Notes under the pieces: generated by a model
Told to the model about the DNA's origin: nothing
What the model saw: only the letters and a program-made list of their open reading frames with translations
Databases searched by the model: none
Assembly (NCBI GenBank): GCA_964016885.1
Contig: OZ024741.1
Location: 129,208,001-129,272,000, forward strand
Reading direction: 5' to 3'
From: Eledone cirrhosa
Lineage: Eukaryota
DNA length: 64,000 nucleotides
In this document: piece by piece, positions 6,344 through 40,983 of the stretch
How the letters are laid out: every line of letters starts with the position of its first letter
How positions within the stretch are numbered: position 1 is the first letter of the stretch
Position numbers and translations under genes: made by a program

Positions 6344-6439
<96 letters not shown>

Positions 6440-6523
6440 AAGTTATATTTAAAATTGTTGGGTTACAACTAGTAAATATTTATAACTGATATAAAAGCAC
6501 TCGACAAATATTTGGAGTATATT

Positions 6524-6872
6524 TACAATATTAAATAAATGGAAAACTATATTTATAAAACCATATTTATTTCATTATATATATTTCGGGGATATCATAT
6601 TAACAATATGTTATGCCTTCATCAGACAAAATACAATATAAACAGTTTTATAGATAAATATATTCGACATACCGTAATAACTGCTAGAGTAAACCTCTTC
6701 AAATGAAGTTGATGTTTATTACGGTATGTCGAATATATTTATCTATAAAACTGTTTATATTGTATTTTGTCTGATGAAGGCATAACATATTGTTAATATG
6801 ATATCCCCGAAATATATATAATGAAATAAATATGGTTTTATAAATATAGTTTTCCATTTATTTAATATTGTA
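6524..6872. mobile_element. Perfect 157 bp-arm palindromic element with HHR on both strands (PLE-derived)
   Basis: Arms 6524-6680 and 6716-6872 with a 35 nt spacer; flanked by (TA)n; unpaired extension at about 6474-6523 shared with 59975-60029. Confidence 0.85.
6763..6828 (+). ncRNA. Type I hammerhead ribozyme (mirror copy on - strand at about 6568-6633)
   Basis: TATTTTGT-CTGATGA-[stem II including CATATT/AATATG]-GAAAT-ATAT-ATA-ATGAAATA; stem I pairs with G-U; predicted cleavage after 6820. Confidence 0.7.
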
Positions 6873-6890
6873 TATATATATATATATATA

Positions 6891-7841
6891 TGTTCTATAG
6901 AAATAGTGGACAGCTTCCGTTACCTGGGCGACAAAATCAGCAGTGGGGGAGGGTGCTCTGAAAGTACAGTAGCTAGAGTCAGAACTGGTTGGAAAAAGTT
7001 CAGAGAGCTTATACCACTATTAGCTGCTAAAGGGTTCTCCCTAAGAATGAAAGGCAGGTTGTATGATGCCTGCATACGAACAGCAATGTTGCATGGCAGT
7101 GAGACCTGGGCATTGTGTGCAGAGGATATACGCAGACTAGAGAGGAACGAAGCTTGCATGCTCCGCTGGATGTGTAATAGTAACATACGTGAACGGCAAA
7201 GCATAAGCGAACTAAGGAAAAAATTAGAAATAAGAGGGATCAGATGTTGTTTACTCGAGAGAAGGCTACGTTGGTATGGTCACGTGATGCGCATGAAAGA
7301 CGACAGCTGTATAACAAAGTGCAGGGCAATAAAGATAGACGGTAGCTACGGAGTAGGCAGACCCAGAAAAACCTGGGACAAGCTGATAAATTCTGACCTC
7401 ACACACTTACACCTCTCCAAGACAATGTCACTGGACCGAGACCTTTGGCGGTACTCAGTAATAGAGAAGACCCGCCTTACCTAAATACAAAGTAAAACCT
7501 ACTACAGCCAGTAGGCATCTCTAACAAAATACAGCCCCACCCCACCCCATCCACACCGCCCCTTCAATGTAAAGTTAGGTTGGTGCCACAACATCCAGGC
7601 CGAAACAAATGAGATCGTGTAGACACAGTCCACGCTGTAATGTGGCCGTGTAGGCAACAAGGTAAAAACCTCCCAGCCCCACACTGTAAATGTGGTTGGT
7701 GTTAGGAAGGGCATCCAGCTGTAGAAAACTCGCCAGATAGTCCTCTGCGAGCAAGACAATCACTCTTGCCTCAAGTGGGAAAACCTCCGTCCAAACCCAT
7801 GCAAGCGTGGAACACGGACGTTAAACGTTGATGATGATGAT
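6891..7841 (+). mobile_element. 5'-truncated RTE-clade LINE (uninterrupted C-terminal ORF 6891-7484, 3' UTR, (TGA)n tail)
   Basis: VDSFRYLG...KGRLYDACIRTAMLHGSETW...RRLRWYGHVMRM...GRPRKTW are the characteristic post-RT motifs of RTE elements. Confidence 0.92.
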
Positions 7842-8351: not shown

Positions 8352-8626
8352 TATTTTCATTTCCTTCATTATTATTATCACTATTTGTACAAATATGCAA
8401 CTTAACAATATTCTGCAAATCCGCAATTAAAAATGCATTTAATGCTGAAAGCGGTATTGTTAAATAGATTAATGTTTTGATATCTCACTGAAAAAAATCT
8501 CTTCAACATTTTCTACTGAAAGAATCTTTTTCCTTTCTACTATTTGTTTATATATATAACCAAACAGTGAGTGTGTTCTGTTATTAATTCTGGTAATATT
8601 ACACAAATATGACCCTCCCCAAGTAT

Positions 8627-8670
<44 letters not shown>

Positions 8671-8939
8671 ATACTTGGGGAGGGTCATATTTGTGTAATA
8701 TTACCAGAATTAATAACAGAACACACTCACTGTTTGGTTATATATATAAACAAATAGTAGAAAGGAAAAAGATTCTTTCAGTAGAAAATGTTGAAGAGAT
8801 TTTTTTCAGTGAGATATCAAAACATTAATCTATTTAACAATACCGTTTTCAGCATTAAATGCATTTTTAATTGCGGATTTGCAGAATATTGTTAAGTTGC
8901 ATATTTGTACAAATAGTGATAATAATAATGAAGGAAATG

Positions 8940-8945
<6 letters not shown>
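8352..8945. repeat. Near-perfect 282 bp-arm palindrome of PLE pLTR-type sequence centred on (TA)n
   Basis: Arms 8352-8633 and 8664-8945 with one visible mismatch; inner ends match the pLTR terminus at 39815 and 27121. Confidence 0.85.
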
Positions 8946-39336: not shown

Positions 39337-39977
39337 ATCATCAACACCAACATCATCGTTTAACGTCCATCTTCCATGCTAGCATGGGTTGGACGGTTTT
39401 GTCTCACTTAAGGCGAGATTGGTCGGGAGACTGTGTCTCGCTTGTACAGAACCGTTTCTAGCAGATTTTCTACGGCTGGATGCCCTTCCTAACACCAACC
39501 ATATTTACAGTGTGGAGTGAGAGCCTTTTTACTGTGTCTTCTACACGACCACTTTACAGTGTAGACTGGTTGCTTTTTGTTGTCACCTACACGGCCGCTT
39601 TACAGTACACGGAAATGGGAGAATGGGGTAGGGTGTGTGGGATGGAGTGTATATTGGGTTAAGAGGTGCTTACTGACTGTAGGTTTAAGTTTGTAAGCAT
39701 GGGAGGTGGGTCTTCTGTATAATTGCATAGTGCCAGACATCTTGATCCAGTGACATTGTCTTATATATATTCATTTTGCAAGGTTCTTGATATGAAATCG
39801 TGTGTTGAAACAACTATTGTTATATTTGGGAAGGGTCTTATTGTTATAATATTGCCAGAAATAATAATAAAACACTCTCACTGTTTGGTTTTGGTTGGTT
39901 TTCGCTTCTGTATATTTTATATCCCTATAGTTAATTTAGCTGGCAATCAATGTTTATCAGTAATTGACCAACAGTTA

Positions 39978-40038
<61 letters not shown>

Positions 40039-40342
40039 TATCAAAGTTTTTTCATTATACACCTGTGACATTATCAGTGGTACTATTATGTTTCCTCCTG
40101 TTGTATTGTAATGTCTATTCTATTTTTTATTCATTTATTTTTGTCTCTATTTGCGCATGCGTTTGTGTGTGTGTTTTCTGTTTGGTGTGTGTTTGTGTCT
40201 GAGTCTGTGTGTGCTTGTATTCTATCTTTACTCACTTGTGTGTGTTTATGTGTTGTTGTTGTTATTGTACCTGTGTATATTTGTTTATATTTATCTTAGG
40301 TCACTATTGTGTGTTTGTGTATGGTTGTTGTTATTCCATTCA

Positions 40343-40635
40343 TTATTTTCTGTTAAACTTTGGTTTTCTTGGTTCTATTTCAGTTGCTTCCCTAATTTGT
40401 CTACCTTTTGAATCATTTCTATGTTTAGATATTATTTGAATTTCTATGTTGTGTATATTACCATCATGTCTTAGTCTGGCCGGTTCATATAGTACCGAAC
40501 CATCTTTTTGTCCTTTTAGTTCACTCCATTGTTGGTATATTCCCTCCCCTATGCTCCAAGCTGTCTCTCCTATGTATATAGTTGTCATGTTTCTGCAAGT
40601 ACCCTCTGTACATCTTATGCTATAGACTACATTCC
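40343..40635 (-). pseudogene. PLE GIY-YIG endonuclease domain (C-terminal remnant)
   Basis: NVVYSIRC-x3-C-x6-YIGET...S.L...H...R.IREA.EI...PKFNR; the usual R..EH residues have decayed. Confidence 0.85.
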
Positions 40636-40687
40636 ATAAATAAAAAATAGAATAGACATTACAATACAATGGAGGGAAATATAATAA

Positions 40688-40731
40688 TACCACTGATGAT
40701 GTCACAGGTGTGTGATGAAAGAACTTTGGTA
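40688..40731 (+). ncRNA. Minimal type I hammerhead motif in PLE pLTR
   Basis: TACCA-CTGATGA-T-GTCACA-GGTG-TGTGAT-GAAAG-AA-CTT-TGGTA; stem I TACCA/TGGTA. Confidence 0.7.
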
Positions 40732-40904
40732 GACTATATTTATATCTATATTTTTAACTGTCGGTCAATCAATGATAAACATTGATTGCCAGCTTAATTA
40801 ACTATAAGGATATAAAATATACAGAAGCGAAAACCAACCAAAACCAAACTGTGAGTGTGTTTTATTATTATTTTAGACAATATTATACCAATATGAACCT
40901 CCAA

Positions 40905-40983
<79 letters not shown>

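What the first reader, a model, noticed from the sequence alone, without database searches (positions are those of the whole stretch)
6474..6872. Paired elements at 6524 and 60030 show covariation around a conserved hammerhead core
The two share outer arm and tail but have diverged internally. Both keep CTGA(T/A)GA and GAAAT-ATAT-ATA. Stem I (TATTTTGT/ATGAAATA versus TATTTTAT/ATAGAATA) and stem II (CATATT/AATATG versus GTACCAA/TTGGTAC) differ in sequence yet still pair. This is the strongest internal evidence for selection on RNA structure. Arms within each element are near-identical although the elements differ from each other, so each palindrome was made at or after insertion.
Basis: seen in the sequence. 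Interest (0 to 1): 0.75.

Follow-up and report, generated by a model that had tools for sequence, protein, structure and literature searches.

The report
Penelope-like transposon ends carrying hammerhead ribozymes
The two palindromes are back-to-back stumps of two related Penelope-like jumping-gene families, each arm carrying a hammerhead ribozyme motif found over 46,000 times in this genome; its stems keep pairing as families diverge, so the RNA fold is under selection, but it is predicted to cut slowly and likely only as a dimer or with protein help.

Summary
Confirmed and explained. Window 6432-6872 (A) and about 59912-60362 (B) are truncated, inverted-duplicated 3' ends of Hydra-type Penelope-like retroelements (PLEs), inserted in (TA)n. 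Long copies of A carry an intact 737-aa RT plus GIY-YIG-like ORF with Hydra motifs. The hammerhead pattern occurs 46,580 times in the genome against 22 in controls. A versus B alone is weak evidence: stem I differs only by three one-sided G-U changes, stem II by two double changes. Across families the covariation holds: 12 of 15 pairs change on both sides in 24 representatives; 90.8% of cells pair against 56-67% in tree-aware simulation. Only one pair is significant alone. Not in the Hydra ribozyme table I read: AUA cleavage triplet, all-AU palindromic stem III, conserved C-C mismatch in stem II, AAUAAA just after the cut. Arms share private variants and either can be longer, which fits two primings on one RNA; the copied RNA was mostly uncut. 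PLE hammerheads and inverted PLE ends are published, and this scan already reported such palindromes elsewhere in this genome. No cleavage or RNA data.

The parts
6432..6523 (-). Element A tail (about 92 nt, present on one arm only), ending in (TA)n; continues toward the ORF start in full-length copies
6524..6680 (-). Element A tailed arm (pseudo-LTR, sense on minus strand), identical to the right arm
6568..6633 (-). Hammerhead motif, left arm of A; predicted cut after 6576 on the minus strand
   Evidence: mirror image of 6763-6828
6680..6715 (+). Unduplicated centre of A; belongs to the tail-less arm and starts at the A (6680) where arm ends pile up (inferred RNA 5' end)
6716..6872 (+). Element A tail-less arm, ending at the family's fixed inner end (about 51 nt after the cut site), then (TA)n
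6763..6828 (+). Type I minimal hammerhead motif of A: stem I 6763-6770/6821-6828, core 6771-6777, stem II 6778-6808 with C-C at 6781/6805, GAAA 6809-6812, palindromic stem III, AUA triplet, predicted cut after 6820
6825..6830 (+). AATAAA overlapping the 3' strand of stem I (candidate polyadenylation signal; inferred)
59912..60029 (-). Element B tail; about 20 nt longer than in 7 other B-family copies shown
60030..60193 (-). Element B tailed arm; hammerhead core starts at 60128, with 2 extra nt in the stem III palindrome
60189..60362 (+). Element B tail-less arm, starting 5 nt after the family's inferred +1, then (TA)n
60257..60317 (+). Type I minimal hammerhead motif of B: core 60265-60271, C-C at 60275/60294, GAAA 60298-60301, predicted cut after 60309; AATAAA at 60314-60319

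Best explanation
A and B are truncated, inverted-duplicated pseudo-LTR ends of two related Hydra-type Penelope-like retrotransposon families, each arm carrying a minimal type I hammerhead motif whose stems keep their pairing across families, which is predicted to cut slowly and likely only as a dimer or with the element's protein. Shown: the link to an RT plus endonuclease ORF, two fixed 3' ends joined to (TA)n, the covariation, and the likeness of the arms. Inferred: the protein nicks both strands of a (TA)n tract; each nick primes reverse transcription at one of two internal sites (about 51 and 144 nt after the ribozyme cut site) on the same, mostly uncut RNA; both cDNAs read through the ribozyme, often run off the RNA 5' end about 90 nt before the core, and are joined through microhomology, giving a palindrome with a one-sided tail. 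Selection acted on the transposing master lineages; the inserted stumps decay neutrally. The ribozyme would process multimeric or read-through transcripts, helped by pairing of two AU palindromes in stem III.
For: Copies with arms 2.6-6.6 kb apart hold an RT ORF. At least 30 of 150 scored matches lie in 738-codon open frames. P0003 has RWR, DKT, CxCx5C, CxxC and CxH, as described for Hydra, and is collinear by eye with Hydra-1_Obim. B: two independent insertions are 92% alike from the ORF C-terminus (47% aa identity to A's) to the ribozyme. Families with GC-rich stem I carry ORFs 38-51% identical to A's. Covariation: 12 of 15 pairs change on both sides, 91.6% of cells pair against 71.8% shuffled and 29-48% slid; RNAalifold finds stems I and II unprompted; the 6 best of 1,596 column pairs are helix pairs; 90.8% paired against 55.9% and 67.1% simulated on two trees, 0 of 500 reaching it; pairing kept in 61 of 79 internal-branch against 74 of 183 terminal-branch changes. 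In a sample anchored on the tail, base 7 takes all four letters while the other core positions differ in at most 2 of 71. Centre belongs to the tail-less arm in 10, the tailed arm in 6, neither in 8 of 27 junctions. Nine arms start at one A, 5 with an extra G. 220 head-to-head joins near that A for A's subfamily against 73 near the cut site for all AT-rich-stem families.
Against: No cleavage or expression data. Only 1 pair reached E < 0.05 alone in my R-scape-like test, and no stem I pair did; the number of independent double changes is small (0-3 branches per pair). Stem III and core were fixed by my search pattern, so their invariance is circular; one search covers only A/B-type families and allowed up to 4 mismatches. 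For A and B the hammerhead fold lies 6.8 and 4.4 kcal/mol above a fold that pairs stem I's 5' strand with GAAAUAUA. A has A-C at 10.1-11.1. [quoted passage not shown] Rfam, Pfam and PDB gave no supporting hit. Shared variants between arms could also come from gene conversion.
Confidence: 0.85

Rival explanations
1. The motif is a hammerhead-derived structure that no longer cuts in families A and B and is kept as a binding or folding element for the PLE protein, or to bury the AAUAAA.
For: Slow AUA triplet; weak all-AU stem III; misfold predicted for A and B; A-C at the base of stem II in the youngest family; templates mostly uncut. In the anole PLE, ribozyme mutants did not affect insertion in vitro (PMC11167929).
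Against: Catalytic positions stay fixed while base 7 varies; the loop III variant AUGU still allows a self-duplex with G-U pairs (41 of 71); GC-rich families have stems I and II in their minimum-energy fold (G1 fully, G2 stem I and distal stem II).
Confidence: 0.2
2. The palindromes arise by fold-back of one cDNA that copies itself, or by later gene conversion between arms, not by two primings.
For: 8 of 27 junctions are symmetric with microhomology; B's centre is a small imperfect hairpin.
Against: In window A and 9 more junctions the unduplicated centre belongs to the tail-less arm; fold-back of a tail-primed cDNA cannot give that, and a cDNA primed at the inner site lacks the tail. The short arm ends at a fixed site in each family. 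B's arms have diverged 3%, so conversion is not continuous.
Confidence: 0.15
3. The stem pairing is a by-product of AT-rich, palindrome-prone DNA and shared ancestry, with no selection on RNA.
For: A and B differ in stem I only by wobble-type changes; single-pair E-values are mostly not significant.
Against: Tree-aware simulation and slid controls; GC-rich families found by the core pattern alone pair in the same register; contrast of internal and terminal branches.
Confidence: 0.03
4. A and B are non-autonomous retrozymes or MITE-like DNA transposons.
For: Short, non-coding, palindromic, very abundant.
Against: Continuous with PLE ORFs in longer copies; asymmetric ends; variable inner breakpoints; no tandem monomer array in the two window elements.
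Confidence: 0.03

Closest known systems
Hydra clade of C-terminal EN+ Penelope-like elements, including Hydra-1_Obim (Craig et al. 2021, PMC8557442; read: passages, section 11, supplement parts 2 and 3 of 59 and search hits)
   Same: DKT, RW(K/R), CxCx5C linker, CxxC and CxH, (TA)n targets, hammerhead near the 3' end, inverted 5'-truncated copy and one-sided tail; non-canonical pair at the base of stem II is common in their table.
   Different: Unit about 4.0 kb (theirs mostly under 3 kb); tail about 92 nt (text: 30-40); all Hydra rows in their File S2 have GAAAC...GUH, none has GAAAU-AUAU-AUA or the 3 bp + C-C stem II.
Minimal hammerheads of metazoan PLEs (Cervera and de la Pena 2014, PMC4209133; parts 1-2 of 4 read)
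   Same: Type I, in pseudo-LTRs, long helix II, short helix I, small palindromic helix III, families with covariation, many dispersed truncated copies, some as close pairs on opposite strands.
   Different: They stress an extra base after A9 and a conserved G10.1-C11.1; here 10.1-11.1 is AU 57, GU 48, GC 20, AC 10, UU 8 of 151 rows. Copy number is at least five times their highest (about 9,000). I did not see their supplementary alignments.
Poseidon PLE of the green anole (Frangieh et al. 2024, PMC11167929; parts 1-2 of 4 read)
   Same: Two internal RT start sites that define the tail, both strands nicked at AT-rich DNA, uncut RNA as main template, protein-assisted hammerhead.
   Different: Other clade; there the ribozyme overlaps the ORF start and the RT sites lie in the ORF; here ribozyme and both sites lie before the ATG.
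Penelope of Drosophila virilis (Schostak et al. 2008, PMC2377424; passages)
   Same: Transcript starts inside the upstream pseudo-LTR; partial tandems flanked by inverted repeats of variable size.
   Different: 34-37-bp tail; intron near the start; other clade.

Membership tests
Hammerhead ribozyme, type I | Core CUGANGA and GAAA with only base 7 free | tested here: met
   (base 7: T48 G11 A7 C5; other core positions at most 2 of 71 changed; 8 of 79 contexts lacked one half and were left out)
Hammerhead ribozyme, type I | Helices I and II supported by covariation | tested here: met
   in aggregate; single-pair significance only for one stem II pair
Hammerhead ribozyme, type I | NUH triplet with A15.1-U16.1 and a helix III (short palindrome in PLE forms) | tested here: met
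   AUA; AUAUAUAU self-duplex -3.2 kcal/mol; invariance partly imposed by the search pattern
Hammerhead ribozyme, type I | G10.1-C11.1 closing pair of helix II | tested here: not met
   GC in 20 of 151 rows; A has A-C, B has G-U. A can form extra-A plus G-C in a shifted register. Published Hydra ribozymes often have U-U there.
Hammerhead ribozyme, type I | Match to an Rfam hammerhead model | tested here: not met
   none among 112 matches at E <= 1
Hammerhead ribozyme, type I | Self-cleavage after H17 | not testable with these tools
   bench test; genomic joins near the cut site are few and scattered (73)
Penelope-like element, Hydra clade | Single ORF with RT and C-terminal GIY-YIG endonuclease between pseudo-LTRs | tested here: met
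   by motif inspection (YRDD; IVY...YVG...R...E...N, motif reading recalled); Pfam and PDB gave no hit
Penelope-like element, Hydra clade | DKT in place of DKG; RWK motif | tested here: met
   SDKTNN; IRWRA, i.e. RWR
Penelope-like element, Hydra clade | CxCx5C linker, CxxC and CxH around the conserved E and N, no CCHH | tested here: met
   CNCRDRSKC, CDLC, CKH; absence of CCHH judged by eye
Penelope-like element, Hydra clade | Insertion into (TA)n; inverted truncated copy; one-sided tail | tested here: met
Penelope-like element, Hydra clade | Generally under 3 kb | tested here: not met
   ribozyme-to-ribozyme period 3,993-4,011 nt, with a long simple-repeat 3' UTR; descriptive, not diagnostic
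Penelope-like element, Hydra clade | Placement in the Hydra clade on an RT tree | not tested
   reference proteins were seen only as cut text
Non-LTR retrozyme | Tandem non-coding monomers with one hammerhead each | tested here: not met

The most novel reading that the evidence does not exclude
This PLE lineage uses a distinct, deliberately throttled hammerhead: slow AUA site, all-AU dimer helix, and a conserved C-C mismatch as docking site for the element's own protein, coupled to an AAUAAA that stem I partly buries. The fold would act as a switch that decides whether a transcript entering a pseudo-LTR is read through (template for two-ended reverse transcription), polyadenylated or cut. Over 46,000 copies in many families would be a natural mutational scan of that switch.
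Probability: 0.2. Interest if true: 0.7.

Novelty: new variant of a known kind. Interest (0 to 1): 0.42.

Why it matters
What PLE hammerheads do is an open question (stated in PMC8557442). This genome offers young families with intact ORFs, tens of thousands of insertions that record both RT start sites and the RNA 5' end, and ribozyme variants from marginal (A) to well folded (GC-rich families). That makes role, dimer dependence and protein help directly testable. The class itself, its ribozymes and its inverted ends are already published, so the surprise is moderate.

Tried and rejected
Rfam scan: no hammerhead model matched. Single-strand folding of the four ribozyme stretches: z from +0.46 to -2.45, no hammerhead fold as minimum. 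Pfam on 4 and then 3 proteins and PDB sequence search: nothing meaningful. The 'extra base after A9' register for stem II fits A but fails at the second pair in the GGAC and GGTC families (pair II5.3-II3.2 paired in 109 of 151 against 141 of 151). The pyrimidine tract before the pile-up site as a 3' splice site: not favoured, because arms starting there are preceded by target or inverted sequence, not by a common exon. L328 did not link B to an ORF (adjacent fragment); L329 and L065 did. Apparent arm ends at +35 to +79 largely reflect subfamily divergence from the reference and were not used. Rows dropped: 3 of 154 chance matches; L068 is mis-binned (equal arms, 38-nt insert). Lunse et al. (PMC5785218) was not held; it may describe AUA or C-C variants. 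Searches with no paper on the point: hammerhead + stem II + C-C mismatch (0), Penelope + twin priming + inverted (2 unrelated listings), Penelope-like + hammerhead + polyadenylation signal (1 review, passage not read). bioRxiv 10.64898/2026.07.22.740005: only term search, no mollusc or AUA mention. PMC13282606: passages, no mention of hammerheads.

Full report
Observation. Both elements are as described. A has arms 6524-6680 and 6716-6872 with no difference in 157 nt; B has arms about 60030-60193 and 60200-60362 with 4 internal substitutions and a 2-nt indel. Each lies between (TA)n tracts and has a tail on the left only. The predicted cut sites 6820 and 60309 are correct. Two sequences cannot establish covariation, so I went to the genome.

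What carries the motif. G000 is a 3.0-Gb genome. A's arm has 44 full-length 100% matches, the window's two included, among 40 of 277 candidate regions scored; B's arm has relatives at 94-98%. Copies of A with distant arms contain an ORF. L032 reads ribozyme, 5' leader, ATG, ORF, 3' UTR, ribozyme, tail, (TA)n. At least 30 of 150 scored matches sit in 738-codon frames; three copies lie head to tail at a 4,011-nt period. The protein P0003 has DKT, RWR, CxCx5C, CxxC and CxH, the marks given for the Hydra clade of PLEs in PMC8557442 section 11 (lead from note e1-10323346, tested here), and follows Hydra-1_Obim by eye. Its best named relative is an Argonauta hians protein, 39% identical. For B, two independent insertions agree at 92% from an ORF C-terminus (47% identical to A's) to the ribozyme. 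So A and B are 3' ends of two related PLE families.

Abundance. Three exclusive core patterns give 29,822, 13,095 and 3,663 matches against 2, 10 and 10 in controls; copies with the AUGU loop are extra (41 of 71). A canonical GUC pattern gives 69 against 1. The core patterns, which ask for no pairing, brought in families with GC-rich stems whose ORFs are 38-51% identical to A's.

Covariation. In 24 representatives that I picked for diversity from the 154 distinct rows, 12 of 15 pairs change on both sides; 91.6% of cells pair against 71.8% shuffled and 29-48% slid. RNAalifold predicts stems I and II without being told. On 151 rows (3 chance matches dropped) the six best of 1,596 column pairs are helix pairs, but only one has E < 0.05 alone, and no stem I pair does. 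A simulation that keeps the tree and the branches of change gives 55.9% or 67.1% pairing against 90.8% observed, 0 of 500 on either tree; changes keep pairing on 61 of 79 (or 44 of 70) internal and 74 of 183 (or 33 of 113) terminal branches. That is selection on master lineages and decay after insertion. In a tail-anchored sample, base 7 takes all four letters and other core positions change in at most 2 of 71 copies; 8 of 79 contexts were truncated.

Special features. The triplet is AUA and stem III is U-AU(A/G)U-A, a self-complementary AU run. C-C at the fourth position of stem II holds in 139 of 151 rows. Pair 10.1-11.1 varies. AATAAA lies within 35 nt after the cut in 18 of 24 representatives, against 2.75 expected from shuffles and 0 of 24 in the windows before and after; the rows are related, so this is a lead. 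None of the Hydra ribozymes in File S2 of PMC8557442 has the AUA form or this stem II. I could not read Lunse et al. or the Cervera supplements, where such variants may appear.

Against efficient cutting. For A and B a fold that pairs stem I's 5' strand with GAAAUAUA is 6.8 and 4.4 kcal/mol better than the monomer hammerhead. AUA is reported slow (PMC3138052 passage). Minimal PLE hammerheads cut only weakly and as dimers (PMC4209133) or with the element's protein (PMC11167929).

How the palindrome forms. Arms end at two fixed sites, about 51 and 144 nt after the cut site in A, each merging into (TA)n; PMC11167929 shows in vitro that such ends are RT start sites. Arms of one insertion share base 7 in 70 of 72 inverted pairs (the two exceptions are a chance match and two different families), 37 pairs are identical, and in L327, L323, L130 and L167 the arms are identical while the nearest other arm differs at 4-8 places. 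B's two arms share A at base 7, unlike the other B-type rows. The unduplicated centre belongs to the tail-less arm in 10 of 27 junctions including A, to the tailed arm in 6, is absent in 8, and 3 have two tails. This excludes simple fold-back for those 10 and fits two primings on one RNA (inferred). Nine of 123 A-family arms start at one A (window 6680), 5 with a G that the element lacks, 2 of them directly after (TA)n; 17 more start at +2 to +16 and only 3 in the 12 nt before. This fits run-off at a capped 5' end, a reading taken from notes e1-9926904, e1-9550100 and e1-10348905 and partly tested here; the sample is biased towards arms that reach +37. Head-to-head joins number 220 near that A for A's subfamily and 73 near the cut site for all AT-rich-stem families, with scattered spacers. 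So the copied RNA was mostly uncut.

Verdict. Real, conserved RNA structure; a hammerhead variant in Hydra-type PLE ends. The class, its ribozymes and its inverted ends are published, and earlier notes of this scan reported such palindromes on other DNA of this genome (none by sequence for this stretch). New here are the quantified covariation and the AUA, C-C and AAUAAA features. Cleavage is untested. Interest 0.42.

Noticed in passing
window 8352-8945: Perfect 594-nt palindrome centred on (TA)n, without a hammerhead motif; its central 180 nt recur in many fetched loci.
   Followed up: partly
window 39760-40910: Element with inverted repeats, similar at its ends to the previous palindrome and 70-80% alike to stretches in several fetched loci; no hammerhead motif.
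   Followed up: partly
window 6893-7484 (+): Open frame right after element A that looks like the C-terminal part of an RTE-type LINE reverse transcriptase (family assignment recalled, not tested).
   Followed up: no
L319-L320 (G000:C7:78451000-78466000): Three full-length copies head to tail, 4,011-nt period, intact ORFs, four ribozymes: a natural multimer for dimer cleavage.
   Followed up: partly
L168-L187: 69 canonical GUC-type hammerhead motifs of other, diverse families against 1 in the control.
   Followed up: no
window 6507-6523 (-) and other families: An ACTC(C)...GAGT hairpin starts about 8 nt beyond the inner end in most families; it may mark the RT start, like the stem-loop in the anole element.
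   Followed up: no
window 60435-60680: Further short imperfect inverted repeat right of element B, with a weak tRNA match below threshold at 60524-60585.
   Followed up: no
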